From assembly GCA_041662965.1 (NCBI GenBank), contig JBAZRI010000003.1, positions 65,331-129,330 of the forward strand: DNA of 64,000 bases, given 5' to 3'. The notes under the pieces were generated by a model. It saw only the letters and a list, made by a program, of their open reading frames with translations, had not been told where the DNA came from and ran no database searches. How positions within the stretch are numbered: position 1 is the first letter of the stretch; every line of letters starts with the position of its first letter. This stretch comes from Patescibacteria group bacterium (GTDB lineage: Bacteria > Patescibacteriota > Patescibacteriia > Patescibacteriales > GWC2-42-12). The translations under genes were made by a program, and so were the position numbers. Below, piece after piece: positions 19,372-64,000 of this stretch.

Positions 19372-21513
19372 CTATTTTGTTGGCAACTCAAAGCAAAACC
19401 TACTGCCCTTGCCTTCGCCGTCCGACTCGGCCCAGATCTTGCCGTGGTGCGCTTCAATCATCATGCGCGCCACGTACAGACCCAATCCTGTGCCTTCGGT
19501 ATGGATCAGCGACGTGCCGGTGCCGCGGGAAAATTTCTTAAACAGATTTACCATATCTTCCGGCCTAATGCCCATGCCCGAATCAGCCACGCAAAATTTT
19601 ATTTTATTTCCCGCCTGTTCAAGCTTAACCGTCACACTGCCCTGCTTAGTGTATTTTATGCCGTTATCAATCAAATTCATGACTACCTGCCTGATTTTTT
19701 CCTCGTCAATTTTTAAAAGCGGCAGAGGCTTAGCCGGCGGCTTGTATTGCAAAATCAAATTTTTCTTTTTGGCGTTGCCGGATAATTCCTCTACGACGCT
19801 CTCGGCCATCTTGTTTAAATCAACTTCCTGGAAATCAAACTGCAGGCGGCCGGATTCAATGCGGGAGATATTCAGCAGATTTTCCACCAGCTGAATTAAC
19901 CTTTCGTTGGATAAAAAAACTTTTTCTAAAGATTCGGTTTCCGGCTTGGTTAAGGCGCCGAAATTGCCTTCTAGCATCATGGAAATATAGCCTTTAATCA
20001 CGGTTAGCGGCGTGCGCAGTTGATGCGAAGCGATGGAAATAAATTCCGATTTGGCCGCGTCAAGCTTTTTTAGCTGGATGTTGGCTTTTCTTAAATCGCG
20101 CGTGGCTTTTTCCACTTCTTTTTCCATTTTAACGCTGAAATTTTTGGTTTCTTTGTATAGTAAGGCGTTTTCTAGGGCAATGGCGGTTTGCGCCCCGACC
20201 ACTTCTAAAACCTTTAAATCTTCTTCATTATACATATCGCCCGACTCTTTAGCGCCTAGAGCGATTAGGCCGATGGTTTTATCTTTAACGTTTAAGGGGG
20301 TTAATATCTCAACCCCTAATTTAAGCAGTATGCCTAAAGTTTTATTATTTTTAAATTGCGTTTTTATGTCATCGGTAATAATAGTTCGGTTTCTCTTTAT
20401 ATAAATTTCATTTAATTTTTTATCCTCATCAAATTCTTGCTGTCCGCCCGTGTTAAAGCCGTTATTGTAATTTATGATATATTTCTTGGTTTTCTCACTG
20501 TAAGTTAAAATGCCGATGGCTTTGGCATGGAAAGCGCTGGACAAGGTGTCAAAAATATAGCCGTAAATTTTTTCCGCCTCTAAAGTGGAGCGCAGTTTTT
20601 CCGATAGCGTGGCGATTACTTCACTGCTATCGTATAACGAAGAGAAAAAATATTTATTGGCCAGGCGGTAAAAACGGTGTCTGATGGACGGATAAACAGA
20701 AATTGACCCTATTAACATAAAAAGATTCGCCCAGTCGGAATATTGAGTAAAATATCTGTCAAAAAAATATTTTATGCCAACCGCGGCTAGCAGTATTGAA
20801 ATTAACGAAGATAAATAAACCGAGTAGCGCCGCATCACCAATTTAATATCCATGAGGCGATGAGCGATAATGGCGTAGGCGGTTAAAATAACGTACAATG
20901 ATACTAAAATATTTCCAATTGGTAAAATCGGTATATTATACCAAAGAAAAAAATTTGTTGAACCGCCTAAAAAACCTATGCCTGTCCCTAGAAGCAAAAA
21001 TTTAATTTGCAATCTTTTAGCCCCGATAGAATATTTATAATTAACTATAAACAAAACTACAGAATAAACAACGAAGCTAAAAAACATTAATAAAAATAAC
21101 CAATACAAACTACCCGCCACAGGCCAAAATTTAAAAGATAATTTTGAAGAAATCCTTTCGACTAATAAGTCGCTAGGTGATATAAAAGCTAAAAATACAA
21201 CAAATAAATATCCAACATATAACAAAATTCTATTATATAATATTTTATCTGCTTCTAAATAAAACAAAGTAAACCTTAAATAAAATAATGGAATAAAAAG
21301 TGAAAAAACTGTTAAAATTTTACACCATAATAATGCGCTTTGAGAATTGTCGGCAACCTGCCATAAAAAATAAGCGACGCTCCAAAAAGCTACGCTAAAA
21401 CAAAATAAAACAAAACTAATATTTATATTAGATTTCTTTTTGCGTAAAATAATTACGCCTAAAATTAAACTGGTTAAAGCATTTATTAATGCCGAAATAG
21501 CGTAAAAACTCAT
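19372..21513 (-). CDS. Sensor histidine kinase (multi-TM N-terminus, GAF-like region, HisKA, HATPase)
   Basis: H-box IASHQLRTPL and N/G boxes (DNGIKYT, DSGMGI, GTGLGL). I placed the start at MSFYAIS (21513) because the longer ORF runs through an upstream hairpin. Confidence 0.85.
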   Translation of the reverse strand: MSFYAISALINALTSLILGVIILRKKKSNINISFVLFCFSVAFWSVAYFLWQVADNSQSALLWCKILTVFSLFIPLFYLRFTLFYLEADKILYNRILLYVGYLFVVFLAFISPSDLLVERISSKLSFKFWPVAGSLYWLFLLMFFSFVVYSVVLFIVNYKYSIGAKRLQIKFLLLGTGIGFLGGSTNFFLWYNIPILPIGNILVSLYVILTAYAIIAHRLMDIKLVMRRYSVYLSSLISILLAAVGIKYFFDRYFTQYSDWANLFMLIGSISVYPSIRHRFYRLANKYFFSSLYDSSEVIATLSEKLRSTLEAEKIYGYIFDTLSSAFHAKAIGILTYSEKTKKYIINYNNGFNTGGQQEFDEDKKLNEIYIKRNRTIITDDIKTQFKNNKTLGILLKLGVEILTPLNVKDKTIGLIALGAKESGDMYNEEDLKVLEVVGAQTAIALENALLYKETKNFSVKMEKEVEKATRDLRKANIQLKKLDAAKSEFISIASHQLRTPLTVIKGYISMMLEGNFGALTKPETESLEKVFLSNERLIQLVENLLNISRIESGRLQFDFQEVDLNKMAESVVEELSGNAKKKNLILQYKPPAKPLPLLKIDEEKIRQVVMNLIDNGIKYTKQGSVTVKLEQAGNKIKFCVADSGMGIRPEDMVNLFKKFSRGTGTSLIHTEGTGLGLYVARMMIEAHHGKIWAESDGEGKGSRFCFELPTK

Positions 21514-21611
21514 AGTAATAAATAATATAATTATTATACCATATTTATTATTTTTAGATAAGAAAAGAGGGCGGAATTTTATCCGAAGATAATAATCCAC
21601 CCTCTGTAAGT

Positions 21612-25043: not shown

Positions 25044-26447
25044 TTATATCATTAATAAAATTAAATAGTATGGAATAAAATACAAAACCTGGCCGTTCAC
25101 TTCTTTTCTATCCATTTCACTTTTTGTTACAACCACTCCGTATCCCAGCTTTTTCGCCTTTATATAATCTGCCAAAACCGAAAGTTCTTTAGAGCTGATA
25201 TTGTTTGAAAATTTAACTTCAACCGGCAAGTATTTATTATTAATATTAATTATAAAATCTATTTCCTTTTCTCCTTGCCGCCAAAAACTCAAGCTATCTA
25301 TTAATTTATTAGTTTTATATTTTAATTCAAACACGTTATAAACCACATTCTCAATAATTTTTCCAAAAGCCTGCGGAACTTCATCGACGTGATCCGCCCT
25401 GAAATGATTAAGAGCGCAGGTAAAGTTAATGCAGGGAGTATATAATTTTTTTAAAATTCTGCCTTGCTTAATCGGACTTTTGTGATATTTATAAAGTACT
25501 TCCACGACATAACTGTCTTTCAAATATTCCAAATATTTATTTAAAGTTATAAAAGACACTCCGGCCTCTTGGCCGATATTCTTTAGCTCGAAAATTGAGC
25601 CGGCATTATTGATTAATTGGCGCGTAATCAATTTGAATTGGTCGATTTTTTCAATATTAAAAATACGAATGCAGTCCTCCAATACTTTGCCTATCACCGA
25701 TTCGACGATATATTCGTGCTTTCTTTCCGGACTGGCAATTTGCCTGGTTTCGGGAAATTGGCCGACAGTTATATATTCTCTGCTCAAATCGGCAATTTCC
25801 TTGCCGTGGTGGGTGTTATAAATGCTTAATTTTCCGAACTGTTTCGGCAATTCAAACAAATCAAATTTTTCCGCTAAATTAGCTCTACCATAATTAATTT
25901 TTGCGAACTCCCTGAATGACATCGGCGGTAGATAAAAATCAAAAATTCTGCCAGCCAGACTTTCCCGATACTTGCCCCTTAATAAAACGCTTTGCGAGCC
26001 GGTAACAATAAACTTAATTTTTTTACCGGACAAATCATAGTATTTTTTCAAAACTGATTGCCAATCTTCAATATATTGAATCTCGTCCAATAAAATATAG
26101 ACCAGTTCATCTAAGGCGAGGCTCGGCCTAGCTATAATATCTCTAAAATAAACAGACAGAACCTCATCAAGAAATTCCGCCTTTTGTATTTGACTGGCAT
26201 AATCAAATAAAAAATAAAAAATATTTTTTGGTTGAACTTTTTCTTCTATCAGCCGGCCGATTAATTGCTTAACAATCGTACTCTTGCCAACGCGCCGCAA
26301 GCCAACGATATTAAGCATTAAAGGGTGCCCCAAATTGTTAATTATAACCTCATAGAGATCTCTTTTCTCCCATTTTGCCTCTTCCGCTTTATACTGATTA
26401 TTTTCCCACCAGCCATTTTTCAAGGCTAAATCTTGGCTTGTTATCAT
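25044..26447 (-). CDS. AAA+ ATPase of the AAA_14/DUF4143 type
   Basis: 467 aa with Walker A GLRRVGKST and Walker B LLDEIQ, plus a C-terminal region resembling the restriction-endonuclease-like DUF4143. Confidence 0.7.
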   Translation of the reverse strand: MITSQDLALKNGWWENNQYKAEEAKWEKRDLYEVIINNLGHPLMLNIVGLRRVGKSTIVKQLIGRLIEEKVQPKNIFYFLFDYASQIQKAEFLDEVLSVYFRDIIARPSLALDELVYILLDEIQYIEDWQSVLKKYYDLSGKKIKFIVTGSQSVLLRGKYRESLAGRIFDFYLPPMSFREFAKINYGRANLAEKFDLFELPKQFGKLSIYNTHHGKEIADLSREYITVGQFPETRQIASPERKHEYIVESVIGKVLEDCIRIFNIEKIDQFKLITRQLINNAGSIFELKNIGQEAGVSFITLNKYLEYLKDSYVVEVLYKYHKSPIKQGRILKKLYTPCINFTCALNHFRADHVDEVPQAFGKIIENVVYNVFELKYKTNKLIDSLSFWRQGEKEIDFIININNKYLPVEVKFSNNISSKELSVLADYIKAKKLGYGVVVTKSEMDRKEVNGQVLYFIPYYLILLMI

Positions 26448-26579: not shown

Positions 26580-27284
26580 ATGGTAAATAAAATAACCAGC
26601 AATAAATCATATAAACAACTGGCTGAATATTACGATGAGCTTACCAATTTAAGGGTGTTTACCGTTTATAAATCTATTATCGGTAAAACTAAAGGTTCGC
26701 GTATGCTTGATCTGGGCTGTGGCACCGGGAATTTGCTTAAATATTATTCTTCAAAAAATGAAACATACGGCATTGACGGTTCGCCGGAGATGATTAAAAT
26801 CGCCGAAGCGAAAGATAAAAATACTTATTATTCCGTCGGCGATATAAGGAATTTTAAAAACAATAAAAAATTTGATCTTATTACCTGCACATTTGATGTA
26901 ATTAACCATCTGCCGACTTTAAAAGATTGGGAGCGACTATTTAAAATGGCGGCTGCCTGTCTTAGCGCTGGCGGCATATTTATTTTTGATTTTAATACGA
27001 TTGAAGGCTTTAAAAATTATGGCGGACGGACAATTTTTAAAAAAATCGGCCGAGATTACATTCTTATGCGGGTAAAAGCCGAGGGGCAAATTTGCTTTTG
27101 GATAATTGACGGCTTTATAAAAAAATCATCGGGATTATTTAAGCATAAAAAATTTATTATTGAGGAACGCTCTTATCCGAATAAATTGATTATAAAAAAA
27201 GTAAAAAAATATTTCTCTATCATAAAAATTATAAATCTGGACAACAACCGGATATATATTAAGGCAAAAAAGAGAGTGGCTTAA
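26580..27284 (+). CDS. Class I SAM-dependent methyltransferase
   Basis: Motif I LDLGCGTGN. 234 aa. Confidence 0.8.
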   Translation: MVNKITSNKSYKQLAEYYDELTNLRVFTVYKSIIGKTKGSRMLDLGCGTGNLLKYYSSKNETYGIDGSPEMIKIAEAKDKNTYYSVGDIRNFKNNKKFDLITCTFDVINHLPTLKDWERLFKMAAACLSAGGIFIFDFNTIEGFKNYGGRTIFKKIGRDYILMRVKAEGQICFWIIDGFIKKSSGLFKHKKFIIEERSYPNKLIIKKVKKYFSIIKIINLDNNRIYIKAKKRVA

Positions 27285-27299
27285 CGGTTAAGCCACTCT
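27273..27299. terminator. Bidirectional hairpin between the convergent methyltransferase and radical-SAM genes
   Basis: Perfect 13-bp stem AGAGTGGCTTAAC-G-GTTAAGCCACTCT overlapping the methyltransferase stop. Confidence 0.6.
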
Positions 27300-27309
27300 T
27301 AAATTTCAA

Positions 27310-28575
27310 CTAAATACTCAGCGCCGCCTCCACTCTTGATTGTTGAGTATAAGCGAAATCCTCTGGTGAGTGCAGGGAGCGCAGCTTATCCAGCCGCGAA
27401 TCATTCCACATTTCAAGAAGATCATCCGTCATAATGTTGCCTAGCTTTAATAATTCCTCGGCTCGTTGCTTGGCGTCCAAATAACAATCCCCTTTGCTGG
27501 AAATGGCAAAATTATAAATTCCCAAACTCATGGCGCTAAGAGTTCCGGCCAGCGGGTGATACTCATTATTTCCCAAATGATGCAATTCTGATTTCCAAAA
27601 AGGATTTCTCATTTTAACTTTACCTGCGGCCGCCCAGCGCAGACATGTTTGCGCCATATATTTTAAATCCTCGTCGTCAAGCAAAAAATCTTGCATTGTT
27701 TCCTTGGCTCGGCCATATGGAGTAACTGCGTTAAGATAAATGGAGGATGCTCCGTATTCACCGGCAAGCTCAGCAATTTCATCTAGCTCGCCGATATTTT
27801 TTTTATGGACCGCTGCCGCAACGGTAAAAGCCAAGCCGGCATCATTGAGCAGGCGCAGACGGCGCAAAGTTTTTAAAAATGACCCTTTGCCTCGCAGAAA
27901 ATCATGAGTTTCCGCCGTTGCTCCATCTAAACTGGTTTGTATACTGATAAGATGCTTTAAAGATTTAAGACCGGAAGCTTGCTGCTCATCGAGATTGTCA
28001 TAGTCAGTCAACAGAGTTAAGCCAAATTGCATCTCATCGGCGATTTCAAGAATCCGTTGTGTATATGGAAGTGATAATGGCTCTCCGCCGGAGATAACCA
28101 ACATAAGAACGCCGGCTTCTCGCAATCGTTGTATTATTTTCACCCAATCGTCAAAGATCAGCTCTTTTTGTCTGTTGATGCGACTGTTTGCATTCGTGGC
28201 GCAATGACGGCAATATTTCGGGCAATAGTCGGTAATATAAATTGTAACGCTAGATGGCGCCGCTAAGCAATCGGTTCTAAAATTATTTTTACTTTCGTTG
28301 AAAATCAAAATACCTGAAGCCTCATTTCGTCGGTCTATCAATCCTTGTTCATCATAAAAAGTGATAAAATCCTGAATTTCTTGATCGCCGATCATCATTC
28401 CCTTAACAATTAAATTTTTACGCAATTCACTTATAGTCAAAGGGGTATTGAGAAGACGGAGAATCTCAAAAGCATCTTCATTAAATTGCCAATAACGCCC
28501 GCTAAAAGATTGAAAGGCCAAACAGCCAAACCATTCATGACGCAATATAATTCCTTCCTTCAGCGCGTATTTCAT
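27310..28575 (-). CDS. Radical SAM enzyme with an N-terminal peptide-binding-like (RRE/PqqD-like) extension and no SPASM cysteine pattern
   Basis: CX3CX2C motif (CPKYCRHC) about 115 aa into the protein. GGAGGTAAA-ATG start at 28575. The C-terminal third has only two Cys. Confidence 0.8.
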   Translation of the reverse strand: MKYALKEGIILRHEWFGCLAFQSFSGRYWQFNEDAFEILRLLNTPLTISELRKNLIVKGMMIGDQEIQDFITFYDEQGLIDRRNEASGILIFNESKNNFRTDCLAAPSSVTIYITDYCPKYCRHCATNANSRINRQKELIFDDWVKIIQRLREAGVLMLVISGGEPLSLPYTQRILEIADEMQFGLTLLTDYDNLDEQQASGLKSLKHLISIQTSLDGATAETHDFLRGKGSFLKTLRRLRLLNDAGLAFTVAAAVHKKNIGELDEIAELAGEYGASSIYLNAVTPYGRAKETMQDFLLDDEDLKYMAQTCLRWAAAGKVKMRNPFWKSELHHLGNNEYHPLAGTLSAMSLGIYNFAISSKGDCYLDAKQRAEELLKLGNIMTDDLLEMWNDSRLDKLRSLHSPEDFAYTQQSRVEAALSI

Positions 28576-28595
28576 TTTACCTCCAATGGATTGAT

Positions 28596-28630
28596 GGTGA
28601 GGATTTACGCTATAGCCGTAAATCCTCACC
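28596..28630 (-). promoter_or_regulatory. Intercistronic hairpin between the peptide gene and the radical SAM gene
   Basis: Perfect 14-bp stem GGTGAGGATTTACG / CGTAAATCCTCACC with a 7-nt loop and no U-tract. Confidence 0.7.
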
Positions 28631-28650
28631 TGAGTTGTGCCACCGGTCAG

Positions 28651-28773
28651 TTATTTGGACCTGATAGCGGGTTGAATTTCCGATGGTGCCGGGGCCGATA
28701 CTTCGCCATGGTTAATCATCACGGCAGGCTGAGGCCGTATAACGACCACTTCCTTTGGATTTAGAGTGCGCAT
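28651..28773 (-). CDS. Candidate RiPP precursor peptide (40 aa): MRTLNPKEVVVIRPQPAVMINHGEVSAPAPSEIQPAIRSK
   Basis: Hand-translated small ORF. AAAGGAGGG lies 7 nt upstream of the ATG and the stop is TAA. It sits immediately upstream of, and on the same strand as, the radical SAM gene. Confidence 0.6.
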   Translation of the reverse strand: MRTLNPKEVVVIRPQPAVMINHGEVSAPAPSEIQPAIRSK

Positions 28774-29032
28774 CCCCATCCCTCCTTTCTTGAGCATAAA
28801 TTGTAAGGCATAACAACATCCTTACGCCCTCACCTAAAATAAAATATTCTCAACTTTTAGTATTTAGTATTAAGACATTTTAATGAGCTTTTTATTATCG
28901 CTAATAACCTTTTAAGCTATAACGATAACACCTTTAAAATAGTCTGAATTGCCGTGATTGTCAAGAATTGTGTCAGAAGAATGCGGGCGTAAAATTATCT
29001 CAACTAAAACGGCTTTTTTTATATAATCATTT

Positions 29033-29515
29033 TTGTTGTATAATTTAACTATGAACACCTATTTAAAAAAATTCATAGACGTTAAATTCAAAAAACCGGG
29101 TAAAGCCCTGGATTTGGGAGCCGGAGATTTTTCCGATATAACAGACTTAAAAAAACTTGGCTGGGAGGGTGAAGGCGTGGATATAAAAACCGGCGTGGAT
29201 TTGGAGAAACCATATCAATCAAAAAATAAGCCTTTTGATTTAGTATATACGAATTATGTTCTGCAAAAATTAAAAAATAAAGAACAGCTTATTAAAACAG
29301 CCTATAGTAATTTAAAAAACAGCGGTTGGTTTTTTATTCATACTTTTGATAAATCAGACCCTAACGGCAAATCCGATATAACCGCTGATTTTTTAGAAAA
29401 ATTATTAAAAAAACAAGGTTTTAAAAATATCGCCGTTAAAATATTTGATTTTTACGACGATGAAGCCGGACATAAGCATTGGCATAAAATTTTAGAGGCC
29501 AAGGCGCGAAAATAA
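29033..29515 (+). CDS. Small class I SAM-dependent methyltransferase
   Basis: Motif I LDLGAGDF. 160 aa. Divergent from the peptide gene. Confidence 0.7.
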   Translation: MLYNLTMNTYLKKFIDVKFKKPGKALDLGAGDFSDITDLKKLGWEGEGVDIKTGVDLEKPYQSKNKPFDLVYTNYVLQKLKNKEQLIKTAYSNLKNSGWFFIHTFDKSDPNGKSDITADFLEKLLKKQGFKNIAVKIFDFYDDEAGHKHWHKILEAKARK

Positions 29516-29576: not shown

Positions 29577-29867
29577 CTACTCAATATTAAATCTATATCC
29601 ATTAACTTCTTCCAATAATTTCAAAGTGGCGATTACCGACTGATTATCGGAACGCTTTATAATAAATTTTCTGCCGTACTTTTTTACCAGCGGAGTTAAG
29701 AACTCATCGCCCCAGGACGGCGAAAAAGTATTGACCCCGTAAAAATCAGCCTCAACATTTTCTATTTTATCTGCGCTTGGCAAAGAAGGCATAAAAGCGG
29801 CTAAAGCTTCTTTGCCTAATTGCCTTGAAGTTAAAGTTGCGCCGAATTTTTTTAGTTGTATTATCAT
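29577..29867 (-). CDS. STAS-like small protein (DUF4325-like)
   Basis: 96 aa. The pattern (LTSRQLGKE...FYGVNTFSPSWGDEF) resembles the STAS-like DUF4325 family that partners with GHKL ATPases. Confidence 0.55.
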   Translation of the reverse strand: MIIQLKKFGATLTSRQLGKEALAAFMPSLPSADKIENVEADFYGVNTFSPSWGDEFLTPLVKKYGRKFIIKRSDNQSVIATLKLLEEVNGYRFNIE

Positions 29868-29892
29868 ATTATTTATTTTATCAATAACACTT

Positions 29893-30627
29893 TTAAAACT
29901 TAACTAACGCCAAACAACCGTTAACCGGCGTTTTCGCTTCAGCTATGTCTATGCCATGGCTTTTTTTATTTATTCTTAATTCGGCCTGCCCGCTCTTGAA
30001 TAAAAAATCATATTTGTTTTCCGCAACTATTTTTCTAACAAATTTAAGACCGTTGCCCCGGCTTTCCGGCGCCCGCCCGGATATTATTTCGGTAAAAGCC
30101 ATTTTTACCGCGTCTTGATCATCTTTTAAATCTGGCCTGACCTTTCTTAAGGTAGTTAAAACTCCCTGGCCTCGATCGGCAATCGCCAATTGCCGGTTAT
30201 TAAGATTATAGATAAAAAACACCCCCGGAACATCCGGCCAGTTGCCGAGATTGTGGTCATAGGCATTATTGCCGATTTCTCCGACGACGGAAGTAATTAA
30301 AGAAAACCTGTCTTGCAGAATGCCGGATTTAATAAGTTCGGTTTCCAGCCTTGACAGCCGCGCCTGAAAAATTGAACTGTTGGGACAGTAAAAATCGGCC
30401 AGAGGTTCAACGGCTGTATCGCCGCTTGCCCATTTTAAAGCCAGTTTATAAATATCCAAATTAGGCATCAATTCGGCCAATAAATTTCTGTCATAGTATC
30501 TATGCCCGGAGCTTTTAAGGCGAACCGCCGGCAATTTTCCGCTTTTATCCCAGCGGCGAAGCGTATCTAGAGAAACTCCTAATATTTGCGTGGCCTGATT
30601 AATTGTTATTAACTCTTTATTTTGCAT
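29893..30627 (-). CDS. MerR/excisionase-type HTH fused to a GHKL (histidine-kinase-like) ATPase domain
   Basis: N-terminal HTH (ITINQATQILGVSLDTLRRWDKSGKL). C-terminal N-box-like EIGNNAYDH, and G-boxes DRGQGV and GNGLKFV. Confidence 0.65.
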   Translation of the reverse strand: MQNKELITINQATQILGVSLDTLRRWDKSGKLPAVRLKSSGHRYYDRNLLAELMPNLDIYKLALKWASGDTAVEPLADFYCPNSSIFQARLSRLETELIKSGILQDRFSLITSVVGEIGNNAYDHNLGNWPDVPGVFFIYNLNNRQLAIADRGQGVLTTLRKVRPDLKDDQDAVKMAFTEIISGRAPESRGNGLKFVRKIVAENKYDFLFKSGQAELRINKKSHGIDIAEAKTPVNGCLALVKF

Positions 30628-30796: not shown

Positions 30797-31273
30797 TTAA
30801 AAATTTTTGATGAGCGCGATTTCCTTGCAGTCTACTGACCCCGGTACGGCGATATTGCGCGGACAGCGGATACAATCTGTCCACATTTTTTTAGGCAGCA
30901 TCTCCATGCCAACTTTTTTAAAACCGTGCTTTTCAAAAGTATTAGGGCGTAAAGTTAAAGTGTAAACTATTTTTATGCCCAGATCCTCTATCCTCTCCAT
31001 CACTGCCGAAATTAGCATAGAGCCTATGCCGTGATTAAAATATTTTTTATCCACAACCCAAGAAACTATTTCCGCTTTTTCATCTTCACCGATTTTAAAA
31101 GCCACGCTGCCGGCAAATTGGCCATCATAGTCAGCCGCCAAAAAATTCGGCAACATGACCGTTAGCTCGGCTCTGCTTTTTGGCAGAAGCAACTCTTCCT
31201 TAGCATAGAGCTTGATTAAATCGTGAATTTTTACTATATCACTAACTACCGCTTGTCTAATTATTATTTTCAT
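30797..31273 (-). CDS. GNAT acetyltransferase of the short ArgA-like (COG1246, N-acetylglutamate synthase-like) type
   Basis: 158 aa. The N-terminal IRQAVVSDIVKIHDLIKLYAKEELLLPKS pattern, the GNAT core, and the C-terminal KMWTDCIRCP...C motif are typical of this subfamily. AGGAG RBS. Confidence 0.65.
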   Translation of the reverse strand: MKIIIRQAVVSDIVKIHDLIKLYAKEELLLPKSRAELTVMLPNFLAADYDGQFAGSVAFKIGEDEKAEIVSWVVDKKYFNHGIGSMLISAVMERIEDLGIKIVYTLTLRPNTFEKHGFKKVGMEMLPKKMWTDCIRCPRNIAVPGSVDCKEIALIKNF

Positions 31274-31513: not shown

Positions 31514-31789
31514 AAAAAACCTCGTCTTCAAATAGAAAAAATTCTATTCAAGGACGAGGTTATTTAGTCTCGTGGTACCACCCTGATTCCCCAATTTTAT
31601 TATCGGAGCGCTCATTAAGCTATTTGCCCGCGGTAGCAAACCGCTCCGGCCTACTTAGGTTCAGCCGGCAATCTCCGGAAGCGCGTTCAGCATTACTGGC
31701 CTGCCGGGCTCGCACCATTACCCGGCTCGCTTAGAGGCTTAAATATTGCTTACTATTTTCCTTCAATGATTAGGTTGATTTTTAAGATC
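31514..31789 (-). promoter_or_regulatory. T-box riboswitch leader (specifier most likely CGC, Arg) with a terminator/antiterminator
   Basis: T-box sequence AATCAGGGTGGTACCACGAG (31569-31588). Stem I AG-bulge AGCGA and distal loop GGTGCGA. AGTA S-turn and GAA-CGC-G specifier loop. Terminator CCTCGTCC...GACGAGG plus T6 (31514-31559). Confidence 0.8.
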
Positions 31790-61194: not shown

Positions 61195-61312
61195 GTTCCG
61201 GCGCTGGCCTACTCTCCCAGGGCTTATGCCCAAGTACCATCGGCGCTGATGAGCTTGACTTCCGTGTTCGGGATGGGAACGGGTATGGCCTCATCGCTAG
61301 AAGCACCAGAAC
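61195..61312 (-). rRNA. rrf: 5S ribosomal RNA
   Basis: The minus strand reads GTTCTGGTGC...CCCGTTCCCATCCCGAACACGGAAGTCAAGC...GGGAGAGTAGG...GCGCCGGAAC. Helix I closes with 10 bp including G-U pairs. Confidence 0.9.
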
Positions 61313-61386
61313 TATGATGCCTTTTTATATGTTTATCAAAAAAGTATAGAGATTGCTTAAGCAATTTATTTTTTCAAAACAAAAAT

Positions 61387-64000
<2,614 letters not shown>

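What the first reader, a model, noticed from the sequence alone, without database searches (positions are those of the whole stretch)
27310..28773. Unannotated RiPP-like locus: Cys-free 40-aa peptide, intercistronic hairpin, radical SAM enzyme without SPASM cysteines
Seen directly in the sequence:
- A small minus-strand ORF (28773->28651) falls below the ORF-track cutoff. It encodes MRTLNPKEVVVIRPQPAVMINHGEVSAPAPSEIQPAIRSK and has a strong RBS (AAAGGAGGG, 7 nt before the ATG).
- 20 nt after its stop there is a perfect 14-bp stem / 7-nt loop hairpin (28596-28630) with no U-tract.
- GGAGGTAAA-ATG then starts a 421-aa protein whose only canonical cluster motif is CPKYCRHC (CX3CX2C), about 115 residues in.

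From established knowledge:
- A peptide gene, a partial-attenuator hairpin and a modifying enzyme is the classic RiPP operon layout. The hairpin sets the precursor:enzyme stoichiometry.
- An N-terminal ~100-aa extension ahead of a radical SAM core is where PqqD-like RiPP recognition elements sit.

What is unusual:
- The enzyme's C-terminal third has only two Cys (TCLRW, GDCYLD), so the 7-Cys SPASM or twitch auxiliary-cluster pattern is absent.
- The peptide has no Cys, Trp, Tyr or Phe and a single His. It therefore does not fit sacti-/ranthipeptides, streptide, darobactin, mycofactocin or PQQ. It would fit triceptide-type precursors only through its single His.
- The peptide carries a duplicated Pro-rich motif (IRPQPAV / IQPAI).
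- Two class I methyltransferases flank the pair (26580-27284 and 29033-29515).

This could be an undescribed radical-SAM peptide-modification chemistry (epimerisation, an aliphatic C-C or C-O crosslink, or C-methylation) in a CPR-like genome.
Basis: partly seen in the sequence, partly recalled or inferred. Interest (0 to 1): 0.85.

Follow-up and report, generated by a model that had tools for sequence, protein, structure and literature searches.

The report
New cluster-less radical SAM peptide-maturation module
A tiny 40-residue peptide gene, a radical SAM enzyme that has lost its usual extra iron-sulfur clusters, and a methyltransferase form a conserved, unnamed peptide-modification system found mainly in ultra-small (CPR) bacteria; what it does to the peptide is still unknown.

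Summary

- **Peptide gene.** The 40-aa ORF (28773->28651) has one homologue next to the enzyme gene in 22 of 22 related loci that have enough flanking DNA. Enzyme identity across these loci runs from 100% down to about 36%. Pro6 and Asn21 are invariant at a fixed spacing. Substitutions fall mainly at third codon positions.
- **Enzyme.** The 421-aa protein has a PqqD-like recognition domain at its N-terminus, a radical SAM core, and a SPASM-derived C-terminal domain with no cluster cysteines. Two members have only four Cys in total, so the family must work with a single [4Fe-4S] cluster.
- **Hairpin.** An intercistronic hairpin recurs at the same position, with different sequences, in 10 of 14 loci.
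- **Methyltransferases.** The downstream one (26580-27284) is a conserved partner, present in 15 loci. The upstream one (29033-29515) is not conserved.
- **Naming.** No Pfam or NCBIfam family and no paper I could find names the enzyme or the peptide.

The chemistry is inferred only. Losing the auxiliary clusters argues for a redox-neutral outcome such as epimerisation near Asn21. However, the candidate H-donor Cys364 is Val in 3 of 43 members. I rate this a new variant of radical SAM RiPP maturation, of moderate to high interest.

The parts
28936..28964 (-). Candidate sigma-70-like promoter (TTGACA-17-TATTTT) about 160 nt upstream of the peptide gene
   Evidence: This is weak: the region has no more promoter-like sites than its shuffles (9 found, 11.7 expected).
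28651..28773 (-). Precursor peptide gene, 40 aa plus stop. Inferred leader is roughly residues 1-17 (L4-x-P6, EVVVIR). The conserved segment P16-A-x-M-I-N21-H-G...P28 is followed by a variable tail.
   Evidence: One homologue sits beside the enzyme in 22 of 22 loci. P6 and N21 are invariant. Substitutions are biased to the third codon position. There is a single copy in the window.
28596..28630 (-). Intercistronic 14-bp stem / 7-nt loop hairpin with no T-run. Inferred to be a partial terminator or a stabiliser of the upstream mRNA 3' end.
   Evidence: z = -6.0. One search shows a hairpin at the same position with different sequences in 10 of 14 relatives, several followed by T-runs.
28321..28575 (-). 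N-terminal RiPP-recognition-element-like domain of the radical SAM protein (about residues 1-85)
   Evidence: model has strands 3-5, 9-14, 17-22 and 27-31, then helices 33-41, 48-57 and 64-76. SuiB aligns from residue 6; full-length SuiB match. PqqD hits in 7 of 25 members. R12, E14, F16, G17 and Q30 are invariant.
27310..28575 (-). Radical SAM peptide maturase, 421 aa. Cluster motif at C118-x3-C122-x2-C125. SPASM-derived C-terminal domain (about residues 345-405) without cluster cysteines. Family motif G-x-C364-Y-L-D367-x-K369.
27273..27299 (-). Intrinsic terminator (12-bp stem followed by CTTTTTT) 10 nt after the radical SAM stop codon. It overlaps the 3' end of the convergent methyltransferase gene.
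26580..27284 (+). Partner class I SAM methyltransferase, 234 aa, convergent with the radical SAM gene
   Evidence: It is adjacent in 15 family loci, convergent in 14 and co-directional in L004. Its identity to the window protein falls broadly in step with that of the radical SAM protein (82% down to 33%); nearest solved relatives include amine N-methyltransferases (CalS10, DesVI/TylM1 type) and, weakly, BpumL and CypM.

Best explanation
This is a compact ribosomal-peptide maturation module.

**Shown**
- The 40-aa peptide gene and the radical SAM gene are adjacent on the same strand. They are separated by a conserved hairpin and followed by a terminator.
- The enzyme is a fusion of a PqqD-like recognition domain, a radical SAM core and a SPASM-derived domain.
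- It can hold only the one SAM-cleaving [4Fe-4S] cluster.
- A methyltransferase is a conserved partner in the CPR lineages.

**Inferred**
- The two genes are co-transcribed. The hairpin lets peptide message outnumber enzyme message.
- The peptide's N-terminal L-x-P...EVVVIR part binds the recognition domain as an added beta-strand. This places the segment around the invariant Asn21, exactly 15 residues after the invariant Pro6, in the active site.
- 5'-deoxyadenosyl radical removes a hydrogen atom from a residue in A-x-[ML]-[IL]-N-[HYFN].
- There is no auxiliary cluster to take up an electron. The substrate radical is therefore most likely resolved without net oxidation.
- My leading guess is hydrogen-atom return to the opposite face, that is, L-to-D epimerisation at or next to Asn21. 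The donor would be Cys364 (or a substitute), helped by the invariant Asp367 and Lys369 that occupy the former cluster site.
- The methyltransferase then methylates the product in the CPR lineages. The second clade, with its longer downstream precursors, does without it.

I put the 'RiPP-type module' part at about 0.85 and the 'epimerisation' part at about 0.3.
For: **Peptide is a real, co-evolving gene**
- One homologue lies next to the enzyme in 22 of 22 loci with flank.
- P6 and N21 are invariant.
- Substitutions favour the third codon position, for example 3/3/11 and 5/3/12 by codon position.
- Two loci carry precursors with two tandem copies of the whole motif.
- Database copies are all unnamed.

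**Enzyme architecture**
- Radical_SAM matches at E = 2.7e-20.
- The AlphaFold model has mean pLDDT 93.1.
- Foldseek matches SuiB at 6e-17 over the full length and SkfB at TM 0.71/0.77, followed by CteB and TigE.
- The PDB profile search gives SkfB at 1.9e-28, and SuiB aligns from residue 6.

**Single cluster**
- SPASM Cys1 is replaced by M349 and Cys2 by the invariant D367. The CX2CX5CX3C segment is deleted.
- P0035 and P0145 have four Cys in all.

**Other supporting points**
- The hairpin is conserved and a terminator follows the enzyme gene.
- The methyltransferase is linked to the pair.
- In the Gracilibacteria locus L004 the module is co-directional and followed by a YcaO gene. The two peptides of the L004 type (L004 itself and P0141, whose source organism was not checked) end in a Cys-containing tail.
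- Precedent from the literature: proteusin epimerases carry only the radical SAM cluster and use a conserved Cys as hydrogen donor (PMC8326336). EpeE uses Cys223, and an Asp210 mutant of it has been crystallised (PMC13012085).
Against: - No chemistry was or can be tested here.
- Cys364 is Val in 3 of 43 family members, and these still sit beside intact LNY-type peptides. A strictly essential hydrogen donor would be invariant.
- The sister family does not conserve this Cys.
- No specific homology to proteusin epimerases or EpeE was seen beyond the superfamily level. EpeE scores 2e-4 over the core only.
- I could not measure the distance from Cys364 to the active site, because model coordinates are not exposed.
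- No protease or exporter is conserved with the module, so the fate of the product is unknown.
- The methyltransferase is convergent in 14 of 15 loci, so it is not in the same transcript.
- The promoter call is weak.
Confidence: 0.6

Rival explanations
1. The system is the same RiPP module, but the radical SAM enzyme makes a new covalent link or another net-oxidative change. Examples are a C-C, C-O or C-N macrocycle, or a dehydrogenation, between the Asn21 region and the conserved Pro about 7 residues later. The radical SAM cluster itself or an external acceptor would take the electron.
For: - The two conserved anchors N21 and P28 are 7-8 residues apart in every peptide.
- The invariant Asp367 and Lys369 at the former cluster site could do acid-base work.
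- Cys364 is not strictly conserved.
- The closest folds, SuiB, SkfB and CteB, are all cross-linkers.
Against: - Known peptide cross-linking SPASM/twitch maturases keep at least one auxiliary cluster. Here none is possible.
- No Cys, Trp or Lys partner is conserved.
- The residue after Asn varies among H, Y, F and N, so an aromatic partner is not universal.
Confidence: 0.25
2. The peptide is the precursor of a small redox cofactor or metabolite, as PqqA and MftA are, rather than a secreted or signalling peptide. Only a few residues around Asn21 would end up in the product.
For: - The best HMM relatives include MftC (4.4e-30) and PqqE (2.4e-25).
- No exporter or leader protease is conserved.
- Only a short segment of the peptide is invariant.
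- Mycofactocin pathways also include a methyltransferase (my own knowledge).
Against: - All scores lie far below family cut-offs: 105 against 265 bits for MftC, and 89 against 381 for PqqE.
- The C-terminal Val-Tyr or Glu...Tyr targets are absent.
- Auxiliary clusters are absent.
- No peptidase, dehydrogenase or glycosyltransferase is conserved nearby.
- Tandem-repeat and long-tailed precursors, and the YcaO pairing in L004, fit peptide products better.
Confidence: 0.07
3. The small ORF is not the substrate. It would be a regulatory upstream ORF or leader peptide, or a small partner protein, and the enzyme would act on some other molecule.
For: - The hairpin between the ORF and the enzyme gene could be read as an attenuator.
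- In one clade the small gene lies downstream of the enzyme.
Against: - A translated-leader attenuator would not conserve amino-acid sequence across enzyme identity down to about 36%, nor keep working when moved downstream of the enzyme.
- The enzyme carries a peptide-recognition domain and matches RiPP maturases over its full length.
- Precursors with duplicated motifs exist.
Confidence: 0.05
4. The enzyme is a decayed, inactive relic of a SPASM maturase that lost its auxiliary clusters.
For: All SPASM cysteines are lost.
Against: - The CX3CX2C motif and about 50 other positions are invariant across 25 aligned members, whose identity to the window protein falls to 35%.
- The family-specific C-Y-L-D-x-K motif is conserved.
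- The peptide is under purifying selection.
- The partner methyltransferase's identity falls broadly in step with the enzyme's.
- A sister family shares the same cluster-less build.
Confidence: 0.03

Closest known systems
SuiB (streptide), SkfB and CteB: RiPP maturases built as recognition domain + radical SAM core + SPASM/twitch domain
   Same: - The three-part architecture and fold are the same. Foldseek gives SuiB at E = 6e-17 over about 435 columns and SkfB at TM 0.71/0.77. The profile search gives SkfB at 1.9e-28.
- A short precursor gene sits next to the enzyme gene.
   Different: - Sequence identity is only 17-19%.
- All auxiliary-cluster cysteines are lost.
- The precursor has no conserved Cys, Lys or Trp to cross-link.
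- No NCBIfam model of these families comes near its cut-off.
Proteusin radical SAM epimerases (PoyD, OspD), with the Asn N-methyltransferase PoyE
   Same: - Only the radical SAM cluster is present.
- One conserved Cys is proposed as the hydrogen donor (PMC8326336).
- A radical SAM enzyme paired with a SAM methyltransferase acting on Asn-containing peptides is a precedent (the PoyE role is from my own knowledge).
- The enzymes act on aliphatic and Asn residues.
   Different: - Their recognition domain is C-terminal and their leaders are long and nitrile-hydratase-like (PMC8326336).
- No family-level sequence match was seen.
- Here the Cys is present in only 40 of 43 members.
- This is a working analogy, not membership.
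EpeE/YydG epipeptide epimerase
   Same: - The precursor is short.
- The mechanism is C-alpha hydrogen abstraction followed by hydrogen return from a Cys (PMC13012085).
- It appears among the fold matches (8ai1, E = 1.7e-8).
   Different: - EpeE keeps an auxiliary [4Fe-4S] cluster in an extended twitch domain (PMC13012085).
- Its 8ai1 chain is 344 residues and matches this family only over the radical SAM core (query 110-214 to chain 30-136), so it shows no counterpart of the ~100-residue N-terminal recognition domain.
- Sequence similarity is limited to the core (2e-4).
MftC (mycofactocin) and PqqE (PQQ)
   Same: - Both are among the best HMM hits.
- Both are peptide-modifying radical SAM enzymes that depend on a PqqD-type recognition element.
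   Different: - Their recognition element is a separate protein (my own knowledge).
- SPASM clusters are present.
- Their targets are C-terminal Val-Tyr or Glu/Tyr.
- Scores lie far below their cut-offs.
Unnamed sister family (P0154, P0156-P0158, P0160, P0162, P0175, P0182, P0185, P0198)
   Same: - Size is about 420-440 aa, with the same N-terminal R-x-E-x-F-G start and CX3CX2C motif.
- The C-terminal domain lacks a cluster motif.
- Each of the three loci I fetched has a small conserved ORF next to the enzyme gene.
   Different: - Profile scores drop to 180-270 bits.
- The small ORF is a different family (...P-[LI]-E-I-[ST]-R...[VL]-D-E-[NT]...) and overlaps the enzyme's stop codon downstream.
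- The hairpin Cys and the D-x-K motif are not conserved.

Membership tests
Radical SAM superfamily | CX3CX2C cluster motif and PF04055 core | tested here: met
   C118, C122 and C125 are invariant in 43 of 43 members. PF04055 matches at E = 2.7e-20, 73.6 bits against a cut-off of 29.5.
SPASM/twitch subfamily | C-terminal SPASM-type domain (beta-hairpin fold, PF13186) | tested here: met
   PF13186 matches residues 355-400 at 22.4 bits against 21.5, and matches 23 of 25 members. The model has the hairpin strands at 355-358 and 363-365.
SPASM/twitch subfamily | Cysteines that bind one or two auxiliary [4Fe-4S] clusters | tested here: not met
   In an alignment with eight SPASM proteins, Cys1 aligns to M349 and Cys2 to D367, and the CX2CX5CX3C segment is deleted. 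Two members have four Cys in total.
RiPP recognition element (PqqD-like domain) | Winged-helix domain of three strands plus three helices, detectable as PF05402 or by fold | tested here: inconclusive
   The topology broadly fits: four short strands then three helices. The SuiB recognition-domain region aligns. PF05402 is below its cut-off in the window protein (14.2 against 23.4 bits) and reaches E <= 0.1 in 7 of 25 members, best 1.3e-4. Peptide binding was not tested.
RiPP biosynthetic system (general) | Genetically encoded precursor peptide conserved next to its modifying enzyme | tested here: met
   22 of 22 loci with flank
RiPP biosynthetic system (general) | Demonstrated post-translational modification, leader removal and export | not testable with these tools
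   No protease or transporter is conserved nearby. Mass spectrometry is needed.
Sactipeptides / ranthipeptides | Cys residues in the core that form thioethers | tested here: not met
   The window peptide has no Cys, and no Cys column is conserved.
Mycofactocin (MftC/MftA) | TIGR03962 at or above 265 bits, and a precursor ending in Val-Tyr | tested here: not met
   Score is 105 bits. The peptide ends in ...IRSK.
PQQ (PqqE/PqqA) | TIGR02109 at or above 381 bits, and an E-x3-Y precursor motif | tested here: not met
   Score is 89 bits. The window peptide has no Tyr.
Triceptides (three-residue cyclophanes) | A conserved aromatic residue starting an aromatic-X-X motif, and a SPASM enzyme with auxiliary clusters | tested here: not met
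   The position after Asn21 is H, Y, F or N across the family. No auxiliary clusters are possible.
Proteusin-type radical SAM epimerases | Single cluster and a strictly conserved hydrogen-donor Cys, with a C-terminal recognition domain and a nitrile-hydratase-like leader | tested here: not met
   The single-cluster feature is met. The Cys is present in 40 of 43 members. The recognition domain is N-terminal. The leader is short. Epimerase activity was not tested.

The most novel reading that the evidence does not exclude
This is a new RiPP class. It would be defined by an L-x-P-x14-N precursor and a recognition-domain-fused radical SAM enzyme. That enzyme has swapped its auxiliary Fe-S site for an invariant Asp/Lys pair and performs a transformation not yet described for peptide radical SAM enzymes at or beside an invariant Asn. 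The product, methylated in CPR bacteria, might act as a signal, possibly read by the 7TM histidine kinase that recurs nearby.
Probability: 0.3. Interest if true: 0.8.

Novelty: new variant of a known kind. Interest (0 to 1): 0.6.

Why it matters
- **Mechanism.** Peptide-modifying radical SAM enzymes of the SPASM lineage are thought to need auxiliary clusters. This family, and a sister family, have deleted them yet stay under strong selection with their peptides. They are a natural test of what the radical SAM core can do alone.
- **Tractability.** The module has only three genes and a 35-40-residue substrate with two invariant residues. Heterologous expression should be straightforward.
- **Biology.** CPR/Patescibacteria have tiny genomes and few known specialised metabolites. 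A conserved modified peptide in several CPR lineages could bear on how these episymbionts talk to or act on hosts and neighbours. Related copies lie on contigs assigned to Elusimicrobiota and Bacteroidota.

Tried and rejected
- **Peptide-enzyme co-folding.** I built linker fusions of ten matched pairs (A3) to see whether the leader docks on the recognition domain.
- **Hairpin covariation.** RNAalifold on six spacers recovered the stem, but MAFFT misaligns the more distant ones. Support is modest, with 6 of 13 pairs showing double changes. The per-sequence folds are the better evidence.
- **Alternative cluster site.** I asked whether C18, C103 and C364 might bind a cluster. Rejected: they are missing independently in several members, and two members have only four Cys.
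- **Second methyltransferase and other neighbours.** The methyltransferase at 29033-29515, the AAA/DUF4143 ATPase, the MerR-type gene, the DUF4325 gene and the MFS transporter have no counterpart in any related locus.
- **Extra precursor copies.** None elsewhere in the window.
- **Named families.** Pfam and NCBIfam give nothing for the peptides. The enzymes from both clades and from the sister family score only sub-threshold superfamily hits.
- **Literature.** Five full-text searches on CPR/Patescibacteria RiPPs, radical SAM epimerases and cluster-less maturases found no description of this family. The library is incomplete, so this is absence of evidence only.
- **Base composition.** The peptide and enzyme genes are 40-44% GC against 31-37% in the flanks, but other nearby genes reach 43%. 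This is no clear sign of recent transfer.
Full report
**1. The observation**

Reading the minus strand of 27200-28900 and listing ORFs confirms each sequence statement.
- A 40-codon ORF (28773->28651) encodes MRTLNPKEVVVIRPQPAVMINHGEVSAPAPSEIQPAIRSK and sits behind AAAGGAGGG.
- Twenty nt after its stop there is a perfect 14-bp stem with a 7-nt loop (28630-28596) and no T-run.
- GGAGG-TAAA-ATG then opens a 421-aa ORF (28575->27310) with CPKYCRHC at residues 118-125.
- The spacer folds at -31.6 kcal/mol, six standard deviations below its shuffles.
- An intrinsic terminator follows the large ORF at 27299-27273.
- Both flanking genes are class I methyltransferases.

**2. What the large protein is**

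- Pfam finds Radical_SAM at E = 2.7e-20. It finds a marginal but above-threshold SPASM match at residues 355-400 (22.4 against 21.5 bits), and a weak PqqD match at residues 25-55.
- NCBIfam lists only peptide- and cofactor-maturase relatives (ScmE, MftC, PqqE, StsB, WgkB, AlbA, SkfB), all far below their cut-offs.
- An AlphaFold model built on 25 family sequences is confident, with mean pLDDT 93.1 and pTM 0.90. It shows four short strands and three helices at the N-terminus, then the radical SAM barrel, then a small hairpin-containing domain.
- Foldseek against the PDB puts SuiB first, aligned over its full length (E = 6e-17). SkfB (TM 0.71/0.77), CteB and TigE follow.
- A profile search of PDB sequences agrees. 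SkfB scores 1.9e-28, and SuiB aligns from residue 6, which covers its recognition domain.
- Across the family, SPASM is detected in 23 of 25 members and PqqD in 7 of 25.
- The build is therefore that of a RiPP maturase with a fused recognition element.

**3. No auxiliary cluster**

- I aligned 35 family members with eight SPASM proteins.
  - The first canonical SPASM cysteine corresponds to M349 (M, V, I, F or L in the family).
  - The second, in the 'vyPC' position, corresponds to the invariant D367.
  - The CX2CX5CX3C segment is simply missing.
- In 43 members the only cysteines conserved besides the radical SAM triad are these:

| Cysteine | Members carrying it |
|---|---|
| C364 | 40 of 43 |
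| C18 | partly conserved, missing in several members |
| C103 | partly conserved, missing in several members |

- P0035 and P0145 have four cysteines in all. The family must therefore work with one [4Fe-4S] cluster.
- D367 and K369 are invariant in all 43.

**4. The small ORF is a real, co-evolving gene**

- The database search gave a tight clade of 37 proteins (36-100% identity, full length). These are mostly from Patescibacteria, Gribaldobacteria and Gracilibacteria. A gap then separates them from ordinary SPASM proteins.
- I fetched their loci. I then searched six-frame translations with an HMM of the peptides.
- Every locus with enough flank has exactly one homologous small ORF beside the enzyme, 22 of 22.
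- The peptide alignment has two invariant residues, Pro6 and Asn21, at fixed spacing. Leu4 is nearly invariant. In the ten upstream-type precursors aligned, Pro16 and Pro28 are also invariant.
- The consensus is L-x-P-x-E-[VIL]-x-[VI]-[IV]-x-x-Q-P-[AS]-x-[ML]-[IL]-N-[HYFN]-[GST]-x4-P, followed by a variable tail.
- Among close relatives, substitutions pile up at third codon positions.
- In a second clade the precursor lies downstream of the enzyme and is 65-128 aa long. This clade includes a 670-kb Flavipsychrobacter contig. In two loci the precursor carries two tandem copies of the whole motif.
- All database copies of the peptide are 'hypothetical protein'. The window holds one copy.

**5. 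What else belongs to the module**

- All-against-all comparison of ORFs in 18 loci finds only one other conserved neighbour. It is the 234-aa methyltransferase at 26580-27284.
  - It is adjacent in 15 loci, convergent in 14 and co-directional in the Gracilibacteria locus.
  - Its identity to the window protein falls from 82% to 33%, broadly in step with the enzyme's.
  - Its nearest solved relatives include amine N-methyltransferases (CalS10, DesVI/TylM1 type) and, weakly, the RiPP N-terminal methyltransferases BpumL and CypM. This hints at N-methylation but does not show it.
- The upstream methyltransferase (29033-29515) and the other window neighbours are not conserved.
- No protease or exporter is conserved.
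- A hairpin occupies the peptide-enzyme spacer in 10 of 14 loci, with unrelated stem sequences. Several are followed by T-runs. This fits the partial-terminator or mRNA-stabiliser role known from other bacteriocin operons (my own knowledge; the function is inferred).

**6. Mechanism**

*Shown:* the gene order, the domain build, the single cluster, and the conserved peptide with its two invariant positions.

*Inferred:*
- The leader binds the recognition domain.
- The P6-N21 ruler places the A-x-[ML]-[IL]-N segment at the active site.
- The radical is resolved without net oxidation, because the electron-accepting clusters are gone.
- Epimerisation is the best precedent. Proteusin epimerases have only the radical SAM cluster and a conserved Cys donor (PMC8326336). 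EpeE returns a hydrogen from Cys223 (PMC13012085).
- Cys364 lies three residues before the former cluster-ligand position, in the second hairpin strand. This region faces the substrate in SPASM maturases (my own knowledge).

*Against:* three members have Val364 yet keep intact LNY peptides. The sister family does not conserve this Cys. I therefore hold epimerisation at about 0.3 and keep a new cross-link or other chemistry as a serious rival.

**7. Comparison with known systems and novelty**

- The module works like an RRE-dependent radical SAM RiPP pathway.
- It fails the defining tests of sacti- and ranthipeptides, mycofactocin, PQQ, triceptides and proteusins (see the membership table).
- An exhaustive profile search of 1.84 billion representatives returned, among its 150 best hits, about 14 representatives at E < 1e-112. 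A second, also unnamed, family follows with the same cluster-less build and its own small adjacent ORF.
- Five literature searches found no description.
- I rate it a new variant of a known kind. It is interesting because it is compact, conserved in CPR bacteria, and lacks the clusters thought necessary in this enzyme lineage. The rating is tempered because many uncharacterised radical SAM RiPP families exist and the chemistry here is unknown.

Noticed in passing
window 31547-31775 (-) and 30797-31273 (-): A T-box leader (Rfam RF00230, 115 bits) lies about 270 nt upstream of a 158-aa GNAT acetyltransferase. The usual T-box targets are aminoacyl-tRNA synthetase, transporter or biosynthesis genes. 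I did not determine the specifier codon or the true regulated gene.
   Followed up: partly
L014:3739-5019: In this relative (P0009, 401 aa, 4 member sequences) the peptide reading frame runs straight into the radical SAM gene...MINHGEVSVPMSSEIRTAAGMIIGDQ.... The recognition domain is deleted, giving a natural peptide-enzyme fusion, or else an assembly artefact.
   Followed up: no
L091:5233-5619 and L097:3921-4172: These precursors carry two tandem copies of the complete recognition-plus-LNY motif. Both sit beside enzymes that have Val instead of Cys364.
   Followed up: partly
L004:3799-8847 (Gracilibacteria, genetic code 25): Here the peptide, radical SAM gene and methyltransferase are co-directional. 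They are followed by a 355-aa protein with no Pfam hit and a 602-aa YcaO protein. Peptides of this type (L004 and P0141) end in a Cys-containing tail (..NNVCSK..KDICS), which suggests an added azoline or thioamide step.
   Followed up: partly
L093:2059-2340, L094:1590-1775, L095:1402-1560: A sister family of cluster-less radical SAM proteins with a recognition domain (P0154-like) has its own conserved small ORF overlapping the enzyme stop codon. Its motif is P-[LI]-E-I-[ST]-R...[VL]-D-E-[NT]-[IV]. In L094 a TrpRS/TyrRS-like gene (PF00579) follows it.
   Followed up: partly
window 19372-21600 (-); L001:7474-9266; L003:7700-9269; L097:462-2108: A HisKA_7TM sensor histidine kinase lies within 0.5-6 kb of the module in four loci, including one from the distant clade. 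The window and L097 kinases share 28% identity in the 7TM region (E = 3e-10) and 44% in the kinase core. This could be a peptide sensor, or just a common CPR gene.
   Followed up: partly
window 29577-30627 (-): A MerR-type HTH protein (244 aa) is followed by a 96-aa STAS-like DUF4325 protein, next to the module but not conserved with it. An AAA_14/DUF4143 ATPase lies on the other side at 25044-26447.
   Followed up: no
window 61196-64000 (-): A 5S rRNA gene and a partial 23S rRNA gene lie at the window end. No tRNA gene is found anywhere in the 64 kb.
   Followed up: no
L009 (6.5-kb contig binned as Candidatus Methanoperedens) and L005 (Elusimicrobiota single-cell genome): Family members turn up outside CPR bacteria. 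The archaeal assignment rests on a short binned contig and may be a binning error.
   Followed up: no
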